The position numbers and the translations under genes are program-made. Under the pieces are notes generated by a model. It ran no database searches. It was not told where the DNA came from and saw nothing but the letters and a program-made list of their open reading frames with translations. A stretch of 63,278 bases of DNA, the filler included, from Sphacelaria rigidula (Eukaryota), in the NCBI GenBank assembly GCA_964200075.2. It is 11 parts of 11 records of this genome, joined end to end, with 100 filler letters (N's around TTAATTAATTAA, not from the genome) between each part and the next. Parts side by side here need not be neighbours in the genome. Positions count along the whole stretch, not along the records: positions 51,857 to 57,517 come from CAXNAA020025468.1; 10 more parts are not named here. One strand, written 5' to 3'. Positions 5,764 through 63,278 of the stretch are shown here, piece after piece; position 1 is the first letter of the stretch, and each line of letters opens with the position of its first letter.

Positions 5764-6149
5764 GGGATCTTGGGCGTGGGGCTGGGGCGCTGGGACGTGT
5801 TTTCGAGGTGTTCAGCCAGCGTGCAGCGCCGCTCCCCAAAGCGAGAAATGCGCTACCCTTTTTTGCTCCAAAAACACCAGGGTGTACCCTTTTTTGTATA
5901 TTGCAAAAATCCGAATGTATGTGAATGGCTACCGCATTCCACGTGACCCCCACCCAGATCGCTTGAAGTTGCGCATTGTCAAATTGTGGTGGGAAGCAAT
6001 GTTTTCATCAACTTAAATTTAGCACGTCCATGTCACATGGAGACGAAAACGTTAAGCACTTGAATGGAAATAAATGCGGGGTGCAGGAGAACCCCTGACC
6101 GGCTTTCAGTCTGGACAAGTGCATGTACGTTTTCGCTGAATCATTTTTG

Positions 6150-8440: not shown

Positions 8441-8823
8441 CAAGGGCAGGTCGAGTAGAGCATTTGAGGTCGTGCTCAATCCACTCGAATTTTCGAGTAG
8501 AGTATTTGAGATCATACTCAATCTACTCAAAATTTGAGTATTGAGGTCATGCCCAAGAGATACTCTATACTCAAGTATTACTGAGAGCGCTTACTCGATA
8601 TTTGAGCAGAGTATTGGAGGTTGTATTCGATCTACTCAAAATTTGAGTAGAGTATTTTAGGCCATACTTAACCCACTCAGAATTTGAGTAGAGTATTTGA
8701 GGTCGTACTCCCATCTACTCAAAATTTGAGTGAGTGTTTGAGGCCGTACTCGACCTACTCAAACTTTGAGTAGAGTAAATACTCGAGTACTCAAAAGTAC
8801 ATACTCTACTCGACCTGCCCTTG
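8441..8823. mobile_element. hAT-type MITE filled with ~41-bp GAGTA/TACTC sub-repeats
   Basis: Perfect 20-bp TIR CAAGGGCAGGTCGAGTAGAG / CTCTACTCGACCTGCCCTTG. 8-bp TSD GAAATCTG / GGAATCTG (1 mismatch). Confidence 0.88.
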
Positions 8824-11542: not shown

Positions 11543-11609
11543 GTGCTCCGTCTCGAAAGGGATGCGTGGTCAATGGTCAAACGACTAAGGCAAGCAACAA
11601 ATGAGTACG
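11543..11609 (+). mobile_element. C-tract retroposon, 67-nt form A (consensus copy)
   Basis: Exact direct repeat CCCCCCGGATAGTCACT (at least 17 bp) at 11526-11542 and 11610-11626. Confidence 0.93.
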
Positions 11610-16586: not shown

Positions 16587-17084
16587 TGTACCCGTGATCT
16601 TGCACGCAGTAGTCATATGACCACTGACCTCGCGTTCCTACAAAGGCGGGACGGAGCACGCCGGGCTCGCCGGGCCAGGCTCGCAATCAATCGCGAAGCG
16701 CGAAGCGCCGCGATGTGTTCAGCGAATCGCATGAAGGGTGAGTTGCATCCTGCGAATATTCTTCGGCCGTACTGACTATCTTGCATAGGGATGACAGCCT
16801 CCAATGAGCCGCTTCATTTTCTGGTATCGCCACTTCCAGAGACAGCCACGGGCTGCATGTCGCCTCATGGGTGTCTCGTCACCATGAAACACTACGTAGT
16901 ATGGTCACCCCCTTTGCGAGGAATTGACGTTCTCCCACCCCGCAAAATATGATCTAGCTCTACCATCATCATGGTCACCGAAAAAAGACCTCAAGCGCGC
17001 AGAAAAACCCGGCAGCCTTGTTGCCTAGCTTACACAGTGAGTGGCATGTTTTACAGCGTCGTTGACAACGGACGCCAACCTCAT
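16587..17084 (-). mobile_element. C-tract retroposon, full-length form B (~500 bp)
   Basis: Colinear with 56908-57436 from (A/G)GTTGGCGT...CAACGACGCTGTAAA to GCAAGATCAYGRGTAC. G-runs lie on both sides, and GGGGGAGGGCG is repeated at ~16575 and ~17097. Confidence 0.85.
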
Positions 17085-17130
17085 GGGGGGGTCTGAGGGG
17101 GAGGGCGCGGGGGAGGGGAGGAGGGGGGGG

Positions 17131-17187
17131 CGTACTCATTTGTTGCTTGCCTTAGTCGTGTGACCATTGACCACGCATCCCTTTCGA
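17131..17187 (-). mobile_element. C-tract retroposon form A (cut by contig end), stacked next to form B
   Basis: CGTACTCATTTGTTGCTTGCCTTAGTCGTGTGACCATTGACCACGCATCCCTTTCGA follows a G-run. Confidence 0.9.
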
Positions 17188-18479: not shown

Positions 18480-18990
18480 GGACTCCCAAGGGAATTCTGG
18501 CTCCATGTCAACCTGTTCGGACAGCATGGGAAAATCCTGGCCACCTGTCAACCTGTTCGGATAGCATGGGAATTCCGGGATGCCTGTCAGCCTGTTTGGG
18601 CACACATGGGAAACTCCTAGCCACCTGTCAACCTGTTCGGGCACACGTGGAAAGTCCTGGCCACCTTTCAACCTGTTCGAAAACACATGGGAAACTCCTG
18701 GCACCTTGTCAGCCTGTTCGAAAACACATGGGAAACTCCTGGCCACCTGTCAGCCTGTTCGAAAACGCATGGGAAACTTCTGGCCACGTTTCAACCTGTT
18801 CGAAAACACATGGGAAACTCCTGGATCTCCTGTCAACCTGTTCGAATACACATGGGAAACTCCTGGATCTCTTGTCAGCCTGTTCGAAAACACATGGGAA
18901 ACTCCTGGCCACCTGTCAACCTATTCGAAAACACATGGGAAACTCCTGGATCTCTTGTCAACCTGCTCGAAAACACATGGGAAACTCCTG
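18480..18990. repeat. Minisatellite, ~12 x 40-41 bp
   Basis: Unit CCACCTGTCAACCTGTTCGAAAACACATGGGAAACTCCTGG, head-to-tail, with no unique spacers. Confidence 0.95.
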
Positions 18991-19394: not shown

Positions 19395-19699
19395 AACGGG
19401 AACTGACGAAGCATCCGTCTGGTGGCCTCATGCAAACACACTAGCATGTAGCTTCACTCATAGCCGCTCAATCGTTGTGGATCAGGGTTGATTACCAGAT
19501 TCATGAGTAGCTACACAGAAATTGGCAGGCGGGTACCAACGATAATTGTTGAGGAGCACTGTCGCACGCTTCATGCAGCCCTGTGACCTACCGCTGCGGG
19601 TAATATTAATCAAATAGTAAATAATGGTATGTTCAACAATGCACCTGGAAACAAACATCCACATATTCACAGTCGAATATTAAGCTAGAAGTTCATGGT

Positions 19700-22600
19700 T
19701 GGGCTTGATCTCTTAGAACTGAAACAACTTCACATAACTCTCCATTTGTTTTACGCATACATGGCTCGCATAATCTCTTCGAAGATATCTACCAAGGGCG
19801 CAAACGATCAAACAGGGGGAGCCACGTAGAGGTTACATCCATTTTCCATGACAATATAGCATTTCGAGCATTGATGATTTGCCCTCCCTGACCAGGGGGT
19901 AGGGTGAAAACCTCGTGTTTCGTTCATTCAAGCCTCGCAATTCATGTTCACGGCTAATCGGTACCGTGCCTGGTGGCATGTATGCAGACAGTATGACATT
20001 ACGGTTAGACAGACAATTTTCCGTGCATTCGCGGACGGCAGCGTAACAATGTCATTCTCTATCAGTTGCATCCACGGTCATGTACGAGGTGCGGTTATTA
20101 GGTGCACACGAAAACAATCACCCATGTATTGAAAGTCGTGAAGTAAAGTCAAAGCACATGATTGGGTCTGATTTCTTCAAAATCGGAGCAGACATCACAT
20201 AGCCCCGAAGTTCTCAAGCATATATGACTCGCCCATACCCTGTGGAGGTATCCACCAAGGGCGAAACTATCAATCAGGGGGAACCACGTTGAAGTGACAT
20301 TCAATTTCCATGACAATAACACACGTTTAATGCATCAATGATCTGCTCCCCCCCTGACCGGGGTAGGGTAAATACCTCATGTTGATTCAAGCTTCGCAAC
20401 TTCCGTTCACGACGAATCGGCGGACATGGTATCGTGCCTTGTAGCATGTATACATAACCAGTATGGTATTACGGCCACACAAGCAGGTTCGTGAAATTGC
20501 GAAGCATAGAGCAAAACGACATTCTTTCACCGTTGCATACGTGGTCATGCATGAGATACTCGAGCATGTGGTTCGCGTTCCTGAGAGTATATATATATAT
20601 ATATTATGCTGTATGTACTCGGTATTAATTGTAGCCGACAACATCTCGATAGCCCTGTGTATCTCTTCTACAGGCAGTTCGTCAACTCCCATCTGCTGGT
20701 TGATATCGCGTTCAGTAGTTTCACTCAGGCAACACTGTCATCACTACCTCATGTGTCCCCACAGTATATAGACGCGAATAAACAGTACAGTACACGGCAA
20801 AGGTTCTTCCGCATGCATAGTCCGGCATTTGATATTCGATGGTGATTTGGAACAATTTTGTTCTCACAGTAAAAGCATATTACTCATGCACTGTTAGACT
20901 GAGTACAAAGTCAACGATTTCATCGAGGAGATGGTGCAGGCTGTAAACAGTCAGTACCGTCATCCTGTACAGCTGTATTGTAACAGCATCACAAGAAACA
21001 TAACGGTTGCATGTCGTAAAACCCAAGGGTGTTATCGCAACTCAATGTGCGGAGACACACGCGATTTTAATCCAGCGGGTCTTGTCGAGTTTGAGTACGT
21101 GTGGGGCAGCATATTGTACCGTGGTTCCATTTCAGTCAGCTGTGTGAAACTAAAAAATTCAAGTGAAGAGCAATCAAAAAGCAGGAGAGTTGTCAGTGCC
21201 AAATATGACGGTCCTTGGAGGAGCGCTTGTTTGCACATTGACCACCACTCAGTCAAGACGTGAATGCAGCAATACAATTTTGTGTACCCAACGGATACGG
21301 CGATTGTAAGCAGCAGTTCAGACAGTGCAACGTAGTCCCTCTGCGTCATGCATATCTTTTTCCAAGTGAATATTGATGCTGACTCAGCAGGTGACCTACC
21401 CTCGTGGTCAACATAGTCAATATTCACAACGAAATGGCGTCGTACAGCTATGTCATCCAAGAATACAGCATAGCACAACGGTGCAGAGAATCATTTCATC
21501 TTGGGATCAACCGTGATGTGGTGTATAAAGCAAGCGTCAAGTTGTCTGTCTTATCTCACGGCACCTTTCACGATCGGCTTTCACATTTCGATCCTGTGCA
21601 CTCATCCGTGAAGGCAAGTTTTTATTTCAAGACGTAAGGGAGATCCCACCGCCCCAACGTTTTCATTGCTGTGTGCAAAATACTTGACCTGCCACCGCGT
21701 GTAAGCAAGCATAGCATAACATGATCTTTTTTGTGGTCGCAGGTGATACCCCCCCCTAGCTTCATGTAACATCATGTTTCCCTGTGTACGCCTTCGTGCG
21801 CTTCACTCACTATCTGTTTGGCGGTTTGCTTCTCGGTTACAACGTATCAAGGCTCAAGCAAGGTTAGATAGCAGCAGATCGATGATAGTACTTGGGGCGG
21901 GGGATTGCACTTTAAATACCCGCTATCCTGTTAAATGCACATACATACGGCACCGCTGTCATGCAACATGCACCCCAAGCATCACTACATTGGTTCTTAC
22001 CCAGATGCAGCATAAGGCAATCGTTATCCAAACGGTATCCAGTAAACCGTGAAATGAATACAAGCGGGTTGCACGATGTCTTCAGGCCGAGCCATCATTA
22101 TCTTTCCTTCCCTTGGCTGTGAATTGTCAAGGGAGGGCAAAGTTGACTGATGACATTGCCAAGTTCTTCAAACACATGGACCCGAGTGATGGACGCAGGG
22201 CGGTCAGTTAAACTTTCAAACCCTCCGCAATTATACTATAAAATGTATAGACTATACGGATCTTTCATGTTGGCTACACGGTCTGCAGCATGAACCCAAC
22301 CTGAACAGCTGTAACCGCTGTTACGGGTGCACCCCAAACATCAAATTCAGTCGTTTGGCAATAACCGCTGCGCAAACGCTGTGGACACGCATCTTCAGGT
22401 GACGTAGGATAAACACAGCCGACAACGCGTTCAAGCGCACACGGGATTGACAGAGGACCAGTTCGTTCATTCTTCATTCTCAGGCAGCAAAATTCGTCAT
22501 CACGTGCGGGATTCTCGTTTGAGGCGAACAACGAATCCTCATATATGGGGGCCAGAACATCACTGTGGTGTATGCGTTGTTGAAGGATCGCATTTAGGAA

Positions 22601-23049: not shown

Positions 23050-23227
23050 ACTTAGCAGTGACCACATCCGCATCTGAGCTGATATCTATCCTGATTACGG
23101 TCAATGGTCTGATGACTATGGCATGCATGATCATGAGTACACCCCCCGTAGGGTGTACATAGCCCCTGGTCGTTGACCGTAATCAGGATAGATATCAGCT
23201 CAGATGCGGATGTGGTCACTGCTAAGT
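23050..23227. repeat. Perfect 55-bp inverted repeat enclosing a form-B 3' fragment
   Basis: 23050-23104 is the exact reverse complement of 23173-23227. The B fragment GGTCAATGGTCTGATGACTATGGCATGCATGATCATGAGTACA lies at 23099-23141 and is followed by CCCCCC. Confidence 0.95.
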
Positions 23228-42394: not shown

Positions 42395-43695
42395 AATGTG
42401 CACACGGATAGTGGCAAAATACGTGCGGCTTGCCTGTGCCGTACGACCACCCCGACCGTGGCGACTTGGATCACACTATCAATCGGAGCTAGCACAACCG
42501 CAGAATACAGTCAGTAGTACAACAGTAACATGATGTCGCACTCTCTCTCTCATCTCTCACCACCTGTCGCGTGATGCGTGACTTCCCACTGCCAGCTCGA
42601 ACGTAAAATATGCCCTGTGTCGATTATTCCAAAGCTCACATTTCATGCTGGATTACTTCTATTCATGTATGTATGATACACAACCACCGAGTATGAAGGG
42701 GAAAGAGCTGCCGCTCTGCGGACCCAAAGAGACATGAAAAATCCCCAAGGTGAAGAAAGTGGCGTGTACCGGAACAGACAACATCATGGCGATTATACCA
42801 TGTGCTTCTGTTTGTTAGCTGAGTTGCGTCTTTCGGTATCATCTATGTGCACCGTAGCCCTGTCTCTCCAGCAAAATGAGTGATGACCTACAGACAGAAG
42901 GACGGTACGTTGTCCATGTAGATACATGAAAGCCAAAGTAAGACACGGAGAATTGTACAATGCTGTACAGAGAGCACAGTGCAATGTCTTCCTATTCTCT
43001 TCCCTTCTCCCGCTGCTTCCCCCCCTTCGTCTATGAGTATCACTGAAAGATCACATGTCACCAACCCCCCAGGCAGCGTGACCCCTTTTTGCAGTCAGCT
43101 TTGAATTTTAACCCCTCGACCGCCAGGCCAGGCATTTTTGAAGTGAGAACTATGGCGACGAAAGAGAGGACCCACCGTTGGGATGATATGTTCTTCATGT
43201 TTTTTCAAACAGCGGGCGGATGCTGTGAAAACGGTACGATGGCGGTACCGGTAGACTCAACTCCATCAACAAACATGGGCACATAATACAGTCGTCATGA
43301 TGTTGTCTGTTCCGGTACAAGCTACTCTCTCTACCTTGGATTTTCTGTTCCTCTCTGGATACACGGAGCGGCAGCTCTTTTCCCTAAATACTTTGTTGGT
43401 GTGCATCATTCATACATGGATGGGAAGTAAGCGAGCATGAAAGTTTGAGCTTTGAAATAATCGACACGGGGTATCTTTTTATGTTCGATCTGCCAGTGGG
43501 AAGCCACGCAGACTCGACCACGCGACAGATCGTGAGAGATGAAAGAAAGTGCGACATCATGTTACTGTTGCACTACTGCCTGTATTCTGCGTTGGTTGTG
43601 CTGGCTCCGATTGAGAGTGTGATCCAACTCACTACGGTCGGGGTGGTCATACCGCACAGCCCAGTCGCACGTGTTTTGCCACTATCCGAGCGTGC
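42395..43695. repeat. Long diverged inverted repeat (arms ~42395-42795 and ~43285-43695)
   Basis: GGATAGTGGCAAAA...GACCACCCCGACCGT...ACAGTAACATGATGTCGCACT is present in opposite orientations. Confidence 0.85.
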
Positions 43696-56300: not shown

Positions 56301-56639
56301 ATCCCACAAGTGGACACGTGCGGTGCTAAATCTCCGTTCGTAGAATCGGCGCATCGTTTTTACGTTCCAAATGTAATTGTGCTGAAAAGCTCTCTTTATC
56401 AAGTGTGGACACTCGATCTGGTGACGAAGTTATTACTTTGTTTTGTACGCACCTCCTGACGTTTCAACGAGAGAAAACCCAGCCTTACCTGCCGAGGTTC
56501 GAACCCTCCATCTTCCGCCGTAACTGGTTCCAGCTGTATATTTTTGTTCAGGCTGCCGGGTCTCGGCGGCGAATATGTTTACATATTAGGGATAGCCCCA
56601 ACTCCCCCCCGCCGGCCCCCTGTCTCTAGAAGTGGGAAT

Positions 56640-56886
56640 TCGTGAAATAAATAAACTCGTTCGAGGCTGTCATCCATATGCATGAAAGTTGGTATGCTTA
56701 CGGCCGAACAATCTTGGTGAAATGCAACCCACCCTTCATGTGACTCGCCGGACACATCACGGTGCTTGCGCTTGTTGACTGCGAGCCTGGTCCGGCGAAA
56801 ACCCGGTGTGCTCCGCTCCGGCTTTGTAGGGATGCAAGGTTGATGATCTCATGACTTTGACTACTGAATGCAAGATCATGAGTACA
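56640..56886 (+). mobile_element. C-tract retroposon form B, 5'-truncated (~250 bp)
   Basis: Aligns to the 3' half of 56908-57436 and ends in GATCATGAGTACA+CCCCCC. The 5' boundary is approximate. Confidence 0.85.
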
Positions 56887-56907
56887 CCCCCCACCTGTGC
56901 GTCTACT

Positions 56908-57436
56908 CCCTTTCAAAAGTTGGCGTTGGTCGTCAACAACGCTGTAAACACGGCACTCACTGCGCATGCAAGGGGACTACGTTGCCGTTTCTTTTTCTCG
57001 TTTGTATTTTTTTGCGGTATCCACGATGGTAGTCGAGTTGGATCATTTTGTGTGTGGTGAAAAAATTCCATTCCGCGCAAAGGGGATGATCATACTACGT
57101 TGTGTTTCAATGGTGAGACACCCATGAGGCAGTGAGGCAGTGCTATGGCATGATCATGAGTACACATGAGGCAGTGTAAGCCGTGGCTGTCTCTGGACGT
57201 GGCGATAGCAGAAAATGAAGACACTCATTGTAGACTGTCTTCCATATGCAAGATGCTTGGTACGCTTCGGGCCCGACAATCTTAGCAGGATGTAGCTCAC
57301 CCTGCGAGTCGCGGAATACATGACGGCGCTTCGCACTTGGTGATGGATTGCGAGCCTGGTCGGGCGTGCTCCGTCCCGGCTTTATAGGGATGCGAGGTCA
57401 ACGATCTAAGACCACGGCGTGCAAGATCATGAGTAC
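56908..57436 (+). mobile_element. C-tract retroposon, full-length form B, with a nested 22-nt B 3' end
   Basis: Colinear with 16587-17084 (reverse). Extra CTATGGCATGATCATGAGTACA at 57143-57164, flanked by CATGAGGCAGTG. Confidence 0.87.
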
Positions 57437-57455
57437 CCCCCCCCCCTCCCCCTGC

Positions 57456-57517
57456 TGCTCCGTCTCGAAAGGGATGCGTGGTCAATGGTCAAATGACTAA
57501 GGCAAGCAACAAATGAG
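57456..57517 (+). mobile_element. C-tract retroposon form A (cut by contig end)
   Basis: TGCTCCGTCTCGAAAGGGATGCG...AACAAATGAG directly after the C-run that ends form B. Confidence 0.9.
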
Positions 57518-57714
57518 NNNNNNNNNNNNNNNNNNNNNNNNNNNNNNNNNNNNNNNNNNNNTTAATTAATTAANNNNNNNNNNNNNNNNNNNNNNNNNNN
57601 NNNNNNNNNNNNNNNNNGTACAGATCATGATTTATGCCCCAAATGAGCTGACCCGGATCTGTCACGACCTGATCCGTCCGACGTGTGGAATAGTTAGACC
57701 ACCCACTACTGTAA

Positions 57715-58380: not shown

Positions 58381-61300
58381 GAACTACGACGAAGACGGAG
58401 ATGGTCTGATGACGGTTCAGGATTTCTTGCGCCTCTTCAGAGACAGGTATCTTGTACGCGCAGAGGACAAAGTACGTACACATGTACACGACAGAATAGC
58501 TTGATCATGATGTGTATTGAATTATATTGACTTTAGTATGCGCTGAACCGGAGGCTCTATGCCGTGTTCGACGTCAATGAAATGGGTAGACTCATGAGCC
58601 CGCACGATGACAACATGGCGTCATCGCTACAACATGTGTACGCTGCGTGTAGCTGCTGCTCTTGCAGATAGACAGCATGGCCTTCGTGTGTTGCACCGCT
58701 TTTTGACTCGAACAGCTTTGACGCCGTGGATCGTGTCCATGCACGAGGGCTGTAGTATCTTTGGTCCTTGTCAAGATTTGTTGTGCCGGCGCCAATCGCC
58801 GTGCATCTTGTGGTGTGTGTGATGATTTGATGATGTGATGAAGATAAGGAGGAAAGTCGCGGGTGCGAATTCCGACAAGCACAGGGTTTATGAGCAGAAT
58901 CTGGTTGCTTCCGTTGAGAAAATTTTACGAGAGTTGACGGGGTGAAGGAGTGGTCATTATGCAATCCTCGGTGGCAACGCGTCAGGCACGTAAGGGGGGA
59001 GACAGGTTGATGCCTTGAGAGTAGCGTGCTGTTATTGATGCACGGAGGGGATAAAAGTATGACGATACGATGTATGAATGTGTATGTGATCAGTTTTCAT
59101 CATTTTGCGGAGACGGTGATCGTGATCGCCGTTCACCCTTTGCGTTTGACGCTGGTTCGCCGTCCTTGTCTTGTGCGGGGCTCACCGCGTGGGTACCTGT
59201 GCTTGGTACTCGTGGTTCCCGCCGGGCTGCGACGGCGATGAACTGGGCATTGTCAACGTCCCGCGGTTTCATCGCTACTATCGATGGCCGCGATAAACTT
59301 GACGTACATCGATTCGGCGCGATTCCTCGCGACCCCGAGCAGCTCGAAGGATATGCCCGAAGTAGTGTGGAGCAACCTGAAGGCGCACAAGTTTCAAGAA
59401 GATCTCACCAGGCCTTCGGACCATGAGGGCTTTTGCGATGTAAGATTGTAAGATACGAAAGCCGGCGTCGATGCTCCCGTAACAGAACTTCTCATGCAGT
59501 TCTGCCAGGGTCGAAAACCTGCTCTGCACTGTTGATACTCCGCTGGAATGAAAAGCGGGTGGATCATACCCGCAGTGAAGGACACCTTTTACTCCTTTTG
59601 TTTTTCGCCCTTCTCTAAGGTCTTGACGGGTCAGCGGTGTTGATGCACTCATCTCGGATCTGAGCCTCGTCGATTGCTTCAGTTGGCTCTGCCCCACGTG
59701 CGTGACATTTGGCAGGGAACGGTCACTACTGTATCGCCACTGTGCGGGAGACATCGTCATCACAAATCATCGCTTTACAACGCTTTACAAATGTCTCTCA
59801 AACCAGGTTTCAGGATCAACCCCCAAGTAGTTGAATATTTAGTTGGTTGATTGACTTTCGCGCATACATTCCCCCGCCATGATGCCAACCGCGACTCCAA
59901 ATCTTAGTAGCATAACGGGAATCCTAACCCACGTCCGTGATACCAGGAGGAACAACAGGCCGAGACACCAAGCAGCCGGAACATCCCCCGCAGCATCATC
60001 TCCCGCGACGCGCGCAGCGTGGACAGGCTACTCTCCGCTCTCTCTCTCGGAGGGCCGGCGGCCACCGCGGCCTGGCGGTTCCTCATGCGCCTACCCACCA
60101 ACCCCGACATGCTCGCCGTCGTGCGGTCGCTCGAAGGAATCCGCACCGACCAAGGGAACATCGGGGGTGGAAGAGACGGGGACGGCGCGGCGGGAGCGAC
60201 CAAGTGGAAAGCGTTGCTTGGACCTCCCGGGTCGCACAAGATGCTCTACACGCTCCAGATCATTGAGGGGGTCTTGGAGAGTGTCGCTGGGTATGACGGT
60301 CGGGGTAAGGGAGACTTGCTCTGTTCCAGTGAAGTTGAGCGCGGCGGGGTGGACCGCGTGCGGTGGGCGACGGAGTTCGTCCGCAGCCAAGGGTTCGCAC
60401 AATTGTGCGAGGCGGTGTTGACGCCGGGGTTATTCGGCGATGAACATCCGAGGAGCATGGTGGATGTCCAACAAGCTTGTTTGGTGAGACGGGCGTGTTT
60501 GTGGGGGAGGTGGGGTGGGGGGTTGAGCTTCGATTTCGCCTTGCGTGCAGCAGCACGGAAGCGTTTTTTTGTCCCGAATCTCGCAGTTGTTGTATTTATC
60601 GTGGCCGCCATACGTGCGCTTGATGTTGGGAATCTGCGCAAAGTTCGGTGTGATCAGTTTCCTGCAAAAAAATTCCATAAGGATCCCAAGATGCTTTGAA
60701 TTAGCAGCTCCGAGCTGATCCGCGTACACAATGTCTCGTCAAATACGTACAGAGCTCCCCGGTAAATAAAATATTCGACTCGTGGTCGTGTTCGATTGCT
60801 GTGCTAACGAAATATCGAAACAGGCGCTGATCCTAAAGGTGGTTCGTGTTTTCCTGCTAGGAGTGCTGTCCGTTCCTCCGCCCAGTCCTTCCAAGGTCAC
60901 CGCCGTCGACAAAATTGTTCAGGATACCGAGTCATCGGCGGCGACGGTAGCGGTCGACAACACGGACGTGGCGACTTCGAGCACAGACAGCGCGTCCAAC
61001 GCTGACGCGGCCAGCGCCGCGGGTAGCGTGACGGGACAGCCGGGAGATGAGTGGAAGGAAGTAGCGTTGTATCCCGACCTCATGAAGTGCGAGGGCATCT
61101 ACGAAGACGGTCCACAAGTCTCGCCTGCGGTGGTGTCGCTGGATGGCGGCGATGATAGCACGACCTTTGCGACTCCTCCGACGGTCACGAAGGGGCTGCC
61201 GGGGAAGCGGCCACGCGGTGGGGATGGCCAAGTCCGACTAGGGTTGGAAGTGTTGGGGAATGTGGGGAGCAAGGGCTTGTGGGAGTCTCTGCCGGGAGAC

Positions 61301-63019
61301 GCGAGGGATGCTGTGCTGGCGGCGGCGCAGTTTCCCGCCCTGCAGGTGGGTGCAAGCTCATGATTATTCTTCGTGTGTCGTGTTTGATGATGGAAATGTA
61401 CAAGTTCGTCGTGGAGTTGGGGTGACGGTGTTCGGAAGCGAAGACTTACAGTGACAGAATAGGACACGGCATCTGTTCTATGGTGATTGTCGTGCGAACT
61501 GTTCGTGCGGTCTGCGACCGGGAAGTTTTGTTGGTGTTGTTGACGGAGGCACGATGCAGTATGTGTCGTTTGTAGTCCAATTCTGAAAATCTTGCTGTAG
61601 ACGGTACACACGCGTACATACACACATCAAGTTTTGGCGTGAAGAGAGGTATTCGCATCCGCATTGTTTCGCCCACGTGCGGTACACCGATCTTCAAGAA
61701 GCAGGTGGCGCGTTCATGTCACCATCTTGCATGCATCTCCATTTAGGTCTTGCTGTGCATGACTTTCTACTCCTTCATACCCAAACTCCCGGCGGCTGCT
61801 CCGTCTCGTATCTACCGTGCCCGTCGTCCGAATCTACACGGGGGATGATTTCCGTGCAGGCGCGTCTCATGAAGCTGGTGGGCGTGGCCGCTGATGTAGC
61901 CGACGCCAGGATGCAGCGACCACTATGCTCTACCGGGGCCGCCTCACCCTTGAACTTGTTCGGGTGCGTTGGGGAAGGCTCCACCGCGGACGCCATGGCA
62001 CGAGAGGCGCTGTTGCTCTGGGTTGGGATTTCGAGCGCACCGCAGCATTGTTCAAACGGGAGAAAAACTGAAGTCGGGGCAGGCGGCGTAGGCGGCGGTG
62101 AAAAAGCAGGCGATAGTTTGTGCCCGCCGAGGACGCTGGAGGATCTGGATGCGCCGGTATTGAAGGGGATTTTTTGCGCGAGCGATGCCATTAGGCTTCG
62201 ACTCGCGAAGTCTCTTTTGTCTGTGTGTGGTGTGGATATTCCTGAGGTGGAGGCGGAGGATAGTGGTGCGGTCCCGGGTGACATCGCTGGTATTGAGGAT
62301 GCCGACGTGGTAGTGCAGGAAGGGGGAGCTGAAAATATTGAAGAAGTGAGTGGGGATGGTGGGGGCGTTGCTGTACAAACGGATGCGGATGTTCTTGTGG
62401 AGGAGGGTGCTGTGGAGTTAGAAAACAAGAAGAGTACTGCTGGAAAGCTCACGCCGAAAGAAGCGCAGGTTGTAGAATATGACACCTTCGGTGCTCACAC
62501 TGCATCTGCGGCGGATACGGAAGATATGATATTTGAGGATGAGCTACCGGGGCACATAGTGAGGTTACTTCTCGACAACATACCCCGGCCGGAAGGAGCG
62601 GCCGGAGGAGGCTTGCCCGGCGGGGCTCTTGAGAATGAGGCATTTTCTCGTGCATCGGGAGCCGTTGTTCCCGGGACTGTCGTGGGACGGCGGAGCGACT
62701 GCACGGAACTGTTCACGGTATTGTGTACTTTGGTGGGGGAGTCGATGAAGGTGGGCGTTGGCCGTGACCGTCGACCTTCGAAGAAACCGGCGCTAGACGT
62801 GCAAGAGTTGTTGTCGGACCTTGTTGCACGTCTCGTGGCGCACCCGTGTACCGAACGAAGGGGGTCGAAGGAGGACGAAAAGGACACGTTACTCGTGGGT
62901 TTGTTAAATCTGGGAGTTACAGTGGTGGAGGCGTGTCCGGAGTCTGCCGGGCCATTGGGAAAGGATCTTGTGGAAACGCTCCTGGAAGATTTCCTTTTCG
63001 CCCCGCCAAGACCTGCCAG
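58381..63019 (+). CDS. Internal exons of a large USP9X/USP24/USP34-like ubiquitin C-terminal hydrolase (non-catalytic region) with an EF-hand-like insert
   Basis: Phase-compatible AG/GT exons 58381-58446, 59343-59439, 59947-60483, 60824-61345 and 61860-63019. The spliced product includes YDEDGDGLMTVQDFLRLFRDSSKDMPEVVWSNLKAH, AWRFLMRLPTNP, KMLYTLQIIE, WATEFVRSQGFAQL, DTLLVGLLNL and LLEDFLF, which resemble this family's helical region. The catalytic domain is not in the window. Confidence 0.72.
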
Positions 63020-63278
63020 GTATATGTTCGGGGGAGGTGGTTCTTGTTTCTTGGAAATATGAAAATATCCGTCGACGGTGTGAGTTTACTTGTGTGCGTC
63101 GAGGGCGGACTTGGTTTTGAGATTAGCAATCTTCCACGATTCAGACGAATCATTGCCGGCTCGAATCACCAAATCCACGACTTTTTCAGGCCTGATTGTT
63201 CGAAAGAGAAAAAAAAAAGTCCACCGATGGTCGGAAAGGTTCCCACGTAACATTTGCGCCATTCCGTGTGCCTGGGCT

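What the first reader, a model, noticed from the sequence alone, without database searches (positions are those of the whole stretch)
56640..57517. Head-to-tail stack: truncated B, full B, then A, each joined through a C-run
Seen: three same-orientation family members in series, separated only by C-rich linkers. A similar A-B stack is at 16587-17187. B copies share the 3' end but have different 5' ends (about 22, 39, 43, 62, 94, 250 and 500 nt). Inference: 3'-anchored truncation supports reverse transcription, and each insertion regenerates a C-run target so arrays grow by re-targeting themselves.
Basis: partly seen in the sequence, partly recalled or inferred. Interest (0 to 1): 0.72.

Follow-up and report, generated by a model that had tools for sequence, protein, structure and literature searches.

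The report
Algal retrotransposon copies stacked on C-runs
The stack is real but belongs to a known kind: leftover pieces of a LINE retrotransposon and its non-coding hitch-hiker, which insert into C-rich DNA and so pile up beside earlier copies, much as already catalogued in the brown alga Ectocarpus.

Summary
The stack is real: a 5'-truncated B (56620-56886), a near-full B (56919-57436) and A (57456-57517, cut by the contig end). A is not a small family of its own. It is the last ~66 nt of a 5.9-kb LINE with one endonuclease-reverse transcriptase ORF that runs to within 5 nt of a C-run tail. B is a ~560-nt non-coding partner sharing the LINE's 5' head (41 nt, 88%) and 3' end (52 nt, 85%). Young copies carry target-site duplications of mostly 12-19 nt that start in a C-run, so an insertion leaves C-runs on both sides. 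Stacks are common (83 exact head-to-tail junctions genome-wide against about 1 expected) and grow in both directions. The anatomy matches the Ectocarpus RTEX-1/RTEX-N1 pair (single EN-RT ORF, (C)n end, C-rich TSD, ~600-bp partner that 'can be present in tandem'). I could not compare the sequences directly. Not found in print by my searches: 5' ends cluster sharply (about three quarters of LINE copies carrying the A motif stop near 66 nt), and long B carries a 48-nt copy of its own subterminal part.

The parts
56596..56619 (+). C-rich run upstream of the stack (probable original target or 5' TSD remnant)
   Evidence: sequence; 60% C over 56590-56619; no matching TSD copy found
56620..56886 (+). 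5'-truncated B (profile positions 298-564), intact 3' end
   Evidence: 80% to the B profile
56887..56918 (+). Linker 1: C-run plus flank, 32 nt, 47% C
   Evidence: bridged by a Logan contig
56919..57436 (+). B, ~500-nt form (profile 67-563): LINE-like 5' head, unique middle, LINE-like 3' end; non-coding
   Evidence: longest stop-free frame in the B profile 61 codons
56919..56958 (+). 5' head of B, homologous to the first ~55 nt of the LINE; hairpin with a possible H-type pseudoknot (inferred)
   Evidence: 41 nt at 88% between profiles; fold; no Rfam match
57143..57164 (+). Nested 22-nt B 3' tip inserted at an internal CCC of B, with a 12-nt TSD (57123-57134 / 57165-57176) and 8 extra duplicated nt (57135-57142)
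   Evidence: absent from the 17 other full B copies aligned; alignment
57437..57455 (+). Linker 2: C-run, about 85% C; probably the 5' TSD copy of A (partner lost beyond the contig end)
   Evidence: the TSD reading is an inference from other A copies
57456..57517 (+). A: 3' tip of the LINE (last 20 codons and stop of the ORF), 98% to profile, cut by the contig end
16587..17090 (-). B, ~500-nt form, downstream member of the second stack (another contig)
   Evidence: 86% to profile
17131..17187 (-). A, upstream member of the second stack, 5' part cut by the contig end
   Evidence: 98% to profile
11544..11609 (+). Solo A with a 16-17-nt TSD that begins with a C-run

Best explanation
A LINE/partner system that inserts at C-runs by target-primed reverse transcription. 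SHOWN: a 5.9-kb element with one ORF (APE endonuclease, RT, C-terminal Cys/His motif) ends 5 nt after its stop codon in a C-run, and A copies are its 3' tips. B shares its 5' head and 3' end. Copies are 3'-anchored and carry variable TSDs that begin in C-runs. Stacks are far above chance and grow on either side. INFERRED: the ORF protein binds the last ~65 nt of the RNA (two short hairpins lying inside the coding sequence, kept in B), nicks the G-rich strand opposite a C-run, pairs the RNA's C tail with the freed G strand and primes reverse transcription. A second nick ~12-19 nt away gives the TSD, leaving a C-run on both sides for later LINE or B insertions. Most LINE cDNAs stop at a hairpin ~66 nt from the end and are joined through 1-5 nt of microhomology. 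B is copied in trans. In this stack A (98% to profile) probably came last, into the tail of the older B.
For: RT: PF00078 above cut-off in 2 of 6 ORF fragments. Endonuclease: PF03372/PF14529 in 5 of 7 fragments, one above cut-off. One 1385-codon frame in the majority profile of 17 copies, ending at the A tip. Public full-length relatives of 1328-1393 aa have EN+RT, and 4 of 19 hits are named Ectocarpus proteins. At least 6 C in the first 8 nt after 163 of 194 intact 3' ends, A-runs after 1 of 194; a C-run within 30 nt upstream of 118 of 166 against 7% background. TSDs in 32 of 178 copies (21 of 42 young LINE copies) against 3 of 600 mismatched flank pairs. 83 exact head-to-tail junctions against ~1.1 expected, and 3 tail-to-tail loci against ~0.9. 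The same LINE-end, C-run, B-like stack occurs in a foreign contig whose LINE is 72-76% identical to an Ectocarpus protein (L178). It matches the RTEX-1/RTEX-N1 annotation in PMC12477816.
Against: No TSD could be assigned to either B of this stack, and A's right flank is missing. TSDs are rare in old copies (3 of 72 B copies under 92% identity). 10 of 100 adjacent pairs in all fetched loci are in opposite orientation, some being inversions inside one LINE copy. No age polarity in stacks by identity (22 vs 21). The 3' C stretch is longer than the 5' one in only 12 of 20 TSD cases, so a templated C tail is suggested, not shown. No intact ORF in single copies examined (longest stop-free stretch 432 codons). 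The nicking and priming geometry is inferred from established LINE biology.
Confidence: 0.88

Rival explanations
1. Same LINE machinery, but the short classes (A ~66 nt; B ~43, ~95, ~300 nt) are copied from RNAs with defined 5' ends made by cleavage or internal transcription starts, or from independent short master copies, not by reverse-transcriptase drop-off.
For: 11 of 16 non-edge LINE copies in the systematic sample are 60-71 nt and 4 are 40-43 nt (one is 382 nt; see full report for the exact list). Only 733 of 3380 exact A motifs keep the upstream LINE 7-mer, against 17 of 20 in long copies. The same 48-nt sequence marks the 5' end of both the 564-nt and the ~95-nt B.
Against: A 5' ends vary over ~10 nt, follow the LINE sequence where they extend, and show 1-5 nt overlaps with the TSD, as in ordinary truncation. 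No ribozyme or Pol III motif was found.
Confidence: 0.15
2. Stacks reflect only shared preference for pre-existing long C-rich tracts (or selection-tolerant regions), with no real contribution from C-runs made by earlier insertions.
For: Some copies sit in long C tracts (L018). The random null ignores clustering of C tracts.
Against: At 12 of 64 junctions the linker recurs as the TSD of one member, with the duplication starting in the neighbour's tail or 5' C-run (control 7 of 633). Median linker about 22 nt, about one TSD.
Confidence: 0.1
3. This particular stack is a mis-assembly of repeats at a contig end.
For: It ends at a contig end. 8 of 40 sampled contigs begin in the family. Junction 2 is not bridged by any listed Logan piece.
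Against: The two B copies are only 70% alike. Junction 1 and the unique left flank are carried by separate Logan contigs at single-copy depth with no differences. Like junctions occur inside many contigs.
Confidence: 0.04
4. Penelope-like partial tandem repeats or tandem duplication/unequal recombination made the array.
For: A truncated copy before a fuller copy resembles Penelope pseudo-LTRs (recalled). Long B has a 48-nt direct repeat.
Against: The partner ORF is APE-RT. Members are mixed LINE and B (23 LINE-B, 16 B-LINE, 15 LINE-LINE, 10 B-B) with differing linkers. No hammerhead core in B.
Confidence: 0.02

Closest known systems
RTEX-1_Ec32 / RTEX-2_Ec32 (RTE-X LINEs of Ectocarpus; PMC12477816 supplementary file 3, rows seen)
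   Same: Single EN-RT ORF; (C)n 3' end; C-rich TSD; 5867, 5511 and 5582 bp against 5896 here. The nearest named proteins are from Ectocarpus (55% over 973 aa).
   Different: Another species and family. No direct comparison: the FASTA supplements cannot be read here, and it is not shown that the named Ectocarpus proteins are RTEX-1. The 66-nt truncation class is not mentioned in what I read.
RTEX-N1_Ec32 (607/604 bp; PMC12477816); probably the 'Sower' repeat (PMC3145265; equating the two is my inference from 2.48 vs ~2.5 Mb)
   Same: About 600-bp non-autonomous partner. Its 3' 60 bp are 83% like the LINE (here 52 nt, 85%). C-rich TSD; 'can be present in tandem'; weak homology to the LINE 5' end is noted in the table.
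   Different: Here the 5' homology is clear (41 nt, 88%), and the long form has a 48-nt copy of its own subterminal part in front. Sequence homology to RTEX-N1 itself is untested.
Bipartite non-autonomous LINE derivatives (Bov-A, RIME, NARTc; PMC5786205, passages)
   Same: They keep only the 5' and 3' ends of the partner LINE.
   Different: B has a ~390-nt middle with no match to the LINE, so it is not a plain internal deletion of this LINE.
Stringent LINE/SINE pairs with 3' stem-loops (PMC3747384, passages)
   Same: A shared structured 3' end used for trans-mobilisation.
   Different: The shared end lies inside the ORF, the tail is C-rich (green-algal RTEX tails listed there are (CA)n, (CAA)n and others), and B has no Pol III head.

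Membership tests
APE-type non-LTR retrotransposon (parent of A) | Reverse transcriptase | tested here: met
   PF00078 E 9e-15 and 1e-13 in 2 of 6 fragments
APE-type non-LTR retrotransposon (parent of A) | APE endonuclease upstream of the RT | tested here: met
   PF03372/PF14529 in 5 of 7 fragments, best E 1.7e-5 and the only one above cut-off; full-length relatives carry both
APE-type non-LTR retrotransposon (parent of A) | 3'-anchored, 5'-truncated copies with variable TSD and a simple-sequence tail | tested here: met
RTE-X, RTEX-1_Ec32 type | Single EN-RT ORF, ~5.5-5.9 kb, (C)n 3' end, C-rich TSD | tested here: met
   5896 nt, one 1385-codon frame, no other frame over 99 codons upstream; features
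RTE-X, RTEX-1_Ec32 type | RT groups with RTE-X references in a phylogeny | not testable with these tools
   No Repbase or RTclass1 references; FASTA supplements unreadable
RTEX-N1_Ec32-like partner (B) | ~600 nt, non-coding, 3' ~60 nt shared with the LINE, C-rich TSD, tandem copies | tested here: met
   564 nt; longest frame 61 codons; 52 nt at 85%; stacks; TSDs in only 5 of 79 B copies
RTEX-N1_Ec32-like partner (B) | Sequence homology to RTEX-N1_Ec32 | not testable with these tools
   Consensus not readable. Indirect only: a B-like piece follows an Ectocarpus-like LINE in L178
Classical SINE (Pol III; tRNA, 5S or 7SL head) | Small-RNA-derived head with A/B boxes | tested here: not met
   ARAGORN 0; Rfam 0 at gathering score; one minus-strand snoRNA hit at 24.6 of 82 bits on a full B; no A/B box by simple patterns
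Bipartite LINE derivative | Both 5' and 3' termini of the LINE retained | tested here: met
   B 65-105 matches LINE 14-54; B 512-563 matches LINE 5845-5895
Penelope-like element | GIY-YIG endonuclease with RT; hammerhead in the pseudo-LTR | tested here: not met
   APE domain instead; no hammerhead core in B

The most novel reading that the evidence does not exclude
The stacks are nurseries for new retroposons. A sequence-encoded signal (RNA cleavage, internal start or hard RT stop) fixes 5' ends, so read-through RNA from a stack is cut into defined units. The 564-nt B would then be a frozen stack: a ~95-nt-class B fragment that lost its 3' end, fused to the ancestral 500-nt B, and became the main master. 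The ~66-nt A would be a minimal retroposon made only of the LINE's recognition element, which is also protein-coding sequence.
Probability: 0.15. Interest if true: 0.6.

Novelty: new member of a known kind. Interest (0 to 1): 0.3.

Why it matters
As it stands, this gives a further brown-algal-type RTE-X LINE/partner pair, making up about 2% of the sampled DNA (8378 of 377,116 nt) and often sitting at contig breaks. It adds detail to the Ectocarpus annotation, whose main text left the origin of the partner's 5' region open: here that head comes from the LINE's own 5' end. Thousands of copies that stop near 66 nt mark out the likely minimal RNA element for this enzyme, which makes 3'-end recognition and C-run targeting easy to test. 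If the clustered 5' ends come from RNA processing, it would show how arrays give rise to composite SINE-like families.

Tried and rejected
Treating the window as one locus: rejected, it is 11 unlinked size-sorted contigs. tRNA or Rfam origin of B: none. HDV-like or hammerhead ribozyme at the 5' ends: no core motif by simple patterns or by inspection of folds; a covariance search for a new ribozyme was not done. Coding capacity of B: none. Age polarity in stacks by identity: none (22 vs 21; same family 10 vs 5). The ~300-nt B class first looked like an artefact of the nested insert in my query, but it recurs against the profile and in Logan joints. Logan depth is summed over contigs and was not used as copy number. 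The run search listed no RNA holder. Pfam found nothing in three ORFs at 59941-63062. Earlier findings of this scan: none returned. Paper searches for C-tailed or C-targeting LINE arrays and truncation hot spots listed nothing on point; I saw listings only, and the library lacks most subscription papers and Repbase Reports. The systematic sample covers 40 contigs (every 340th from C100 to C13360, first 10 kb); the smaller half of the assembly was not sampled.

Full report
Setting. The window is not one locus. Spacers of 100 nt divide it into 11 pieces of 5661-5663 nt, which are separate contigs of a 244-Mb, 27,214-contig assembly sorted by size. The finding lies at the end of the tenth. The organism is probably a brown alga. 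This is an inference: the named relatives of the element's RT are Ectocarpus proteins (4 of 19 hits), and one run holding a gene region of the window is labelled an algae metagenome.

Observation. Against family profiles the stack is B 56620-56886 (profile 298-564, 80%), B 56919-57436 (67-563) and A 57456-57517 (98%). The linkers are 32 nt (47% C) and 20 nt (85% C). The larger B lacks the first ~65 nt of the long form and carries a nested 22-nt B 3' tip with a 12-nt duplication at an internal CCC, which none of the 17 other full copies has. The second stack (A 17131-17187, B 16587-17090, minus strand) is real. One Logan contig at single-copy depth bridges junction 1 without differences; none of the listed pieces bridges junction 2, only 32 of about 22,200 pieces were shown, and the run may be the assembly's source.

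What A is. Among 62 A-like hits in the first 60 loci, 14 continued upstream into shared sequence. Walking upstream gave an element of about 5.9 kb, with a common 5' end in six copies. ORF fragments from single copies hit RVT_1 (2 of 6) and endonuclease families (5 of 7, one above cut-off). A majority profile of 17 copies has one frame of 1385 codons stop to stop, with a C-terminal CxC...H...C motif; it ends 5 nt before the C-run, so A is the last 20 codons, the stop and 5 nt. The ~1.7-kb 5' region has no frame over 99 codons and holds 7.6 copies of a 63-nt repeat. No single copy examined had an intact ORF (longest stop-free stretch 432 codons), but public proteins of 1360 and 1328 aa are 79% and 69% identical to it and end in the same residues.

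What B is. The profile of 17 full copies is 564 nt and non-coding. Positions 65-105 match LINE 14-54 (88%), positions 512-563 match the LINE's last 52 nt (85%), positions 3-50 repeat positions 468-515 exactly, and the middle has no match to the LINE. No tRNA, Rfam family or A/B box was found. Two short hairpins in the last ~60 nt fold in both LINE and B with different loops. In L178, a foreign contig whose LINE is 72-76% identical to an Ectocarpus protein, the first stem is kept with changed pairs; the second has one mismatch in that LINE (read). With four master sequences this is suggestive only. The shared 5' head can form a hairpin whose loop pairs downstream; this is an inference from inspection.

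Target and tail. At least 6 of the first 8 nt after the 3' end are C in 163 of 194 intact ends. A C-run lies within 30 nt upstream in 118 of 166, against 7% background. TSDs (9-30 nt, mostly 12-19) were found in 32 of 178 copies: 21 of 42 young LINE copies, 6 of 57 older ones and 5 of 79 B copies, against 3 of 600 mismatched pairs. This set is enriched for loci fetched by likeness to my queries. 17 of 20 exact TSDs begin with CCC; the 3' C stretch is longer than the 5' one in 12, equal in 1 and shorter in 7.

Stacking. In 40 systematically spaced contigs (377 kb, larger half of the assembly only), 38 hits formed 6 adjacent pairs, all head-to-tail. Random placement gave a mean of 0.39 and a maximum of 4 in 5000 trials; a reversed-sequence control gave 1 hit. 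In all fetched loci, 64 of 100 adjacent pairs were head-to-tail, 20 were split single copies, 6 other same-strand and 10 opposite. Genome-wide exact patterns gave 83 tail-to-A junctions against ~1.1 expected and 3 tail-to-tail loci against ~0.9; the expectations rest on 8 tail motifs in the sample and are rough. Linkers average 69% C. At 12 of 64 junctions the linker recurs as a TSD: 5 only after the downstream member, 5 only before the upstream one, 2 both (control 7 of 633; some events are counted at two junctions). So growth goes both ways. L178 shows the same LINE, C-run, B-like order in another organism.

5' ends. Coverage in the systematic sample is 17 at the LINE's 3' end against 0-2 elsewhere, and 13 against 4-8 along B. 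Lengths cluster. The 17 LINE copies with a 3' end in the sample measure 40, 41, 42, 43, 54 (contig edge), 60, 64, 64, 66, 66, 66, 66, 66, 67, 71, 250 and 382 nt, so 10 of the 16 non-edge copies are 60-71 nt and 4 are 40-43 nt; all 6 non-edge window copies are 64-70 nt. (The count '11 of 16' in the first rival should read 10 of 16.) Genome-wide, 733 of 3380 exact A motifs keep the LINE 7-mer just upstream (22%), against 17 of 20 in long copies. About three quarters therefore stop within ~13 nt, at a predicted hairpin; contig breaks account for some unknown small part. B lengths in the sample are 41, 44, 91, 91 (edge), 95, 100, 131, 303, 513, 561, 561, 562 and 564. The ~95-nt and 564-nt classes begin with the same sequence. 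Extrapolated copy numbers are roughly 10,000 B and 14,000 LINE pieces, from 16 and 22 hits.

Mechanism. The anatomy above is shown. The steps of target-primed reverse transcription (nick opposite a C-run, pairing of a C tail, second nick 12-19 nt away, trans-mobilisation of B through the shared 3' end) follow from established LINE biology and are inferred here. Drop-off at hairpins is my preferred cause of the clustered 5' ends, since A junctions vary by several bases and overlap the TSD by a few nucleotides. RNA processing or short masters remain possible.

Comparison. PMC12477816 (I read part 1 of section 5, matched passages, and RTEX/RTE/LINE rows of supplementary files 3, 4 and 8) lists Ectocarpus RTEX-1 (5867 bp, single EN-RT ORF, (C)n 3', C-rich TSD) and RTEX-N1 (607 bp, 3' 60 bp 83% like the LINE, weak 5' homology to RTEX-2, 'can be present in tandem'). 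Every feature that I could test agrees. Its FASTA supplements could not be read, and they bear on membership and on whether the 48-nt repeat is already in the published consensus. PMC3145265 (one passage) names Sower. PMC4421812 (passages) reports an RTEX-1 in Saccharina. PMC5786205 and PMC3747384 (passages) describe bipartite derivatives and stringent 3' recognition. PMC11203168 (passages) added nothing.

Verdict. Real, well explained, and a new member of a known kind. The clustered 5' ends, the coding overlap of the 3' element and the origin of B's head are useful additions that my searches did not show in print. Interest 0.3.

Noticed in passing
window, every ~5762 nt (e.g. 57518-57617): 100-nt spacers of 44 N, a 12-nt all-frame stop linker and 44 N join unrelated size-sorted contigs; neighbours across them are not linked.
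   Followed up: yes
window 23050-23227: A ~55-nt perfect inverted repeat encloses a 43-nt B 3' tip and its C-run at a contig start; either a fold-back junction made during insertion or an assembly artefact.
   Followed up: partly
window 42405-42838 and 43246-43688: 434-nt inverted repeat at 80% identity, 400 nt apart; possibly an old non-autonomous DNA transposon or two opposite copies of a repeat.
   Followed up: no
window 9675-9984/50639-50937, 23647-23961/27030-27342, 29846-29987/63135-63278: Three other dispersed repeat families (75-81% identity), not matched by the A or B profiles.
   Followed up: no
window 8453-8777, 18487-18990, 19640-20555: Tandem arrays with units of about 41 nt, and a 450-nt tandem duplication at 69% identity.
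   Followed up: no
window 59941-63062: GC-rich open frames (252, 197, 491 aa) that look like exons of one large gene; no Pfam match.
   Followed up: partly
L125 ~1470-2260 (LINE 5' region): About 7.6 copies of a 63-nt tandem repeat in a ~1.7-kb 5' region without an ORF.
   Followed up: partly
L179 2060-2135: A distant relative (40% amino-acid identity) keeps a 14-nt motif of the 3' element inside its last codons but ends in an AT-rich (TTTA-like) tail, so the C tail looks lineage-specific.
   Followed up: partly
L178 2633-2805: In another organism: LINE end, C-run, then a B-like fragment, head to tail.
   Followed up: yes
L095 and L033, next to family members: Short TTAGGG-like runs adjoin stacked copies.
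   Followed up: no
L071, L078, L089: LINE copies with internal inversions or back-to-back A tips, of the kind twin priming gives (label recalled).
   Followed up: no
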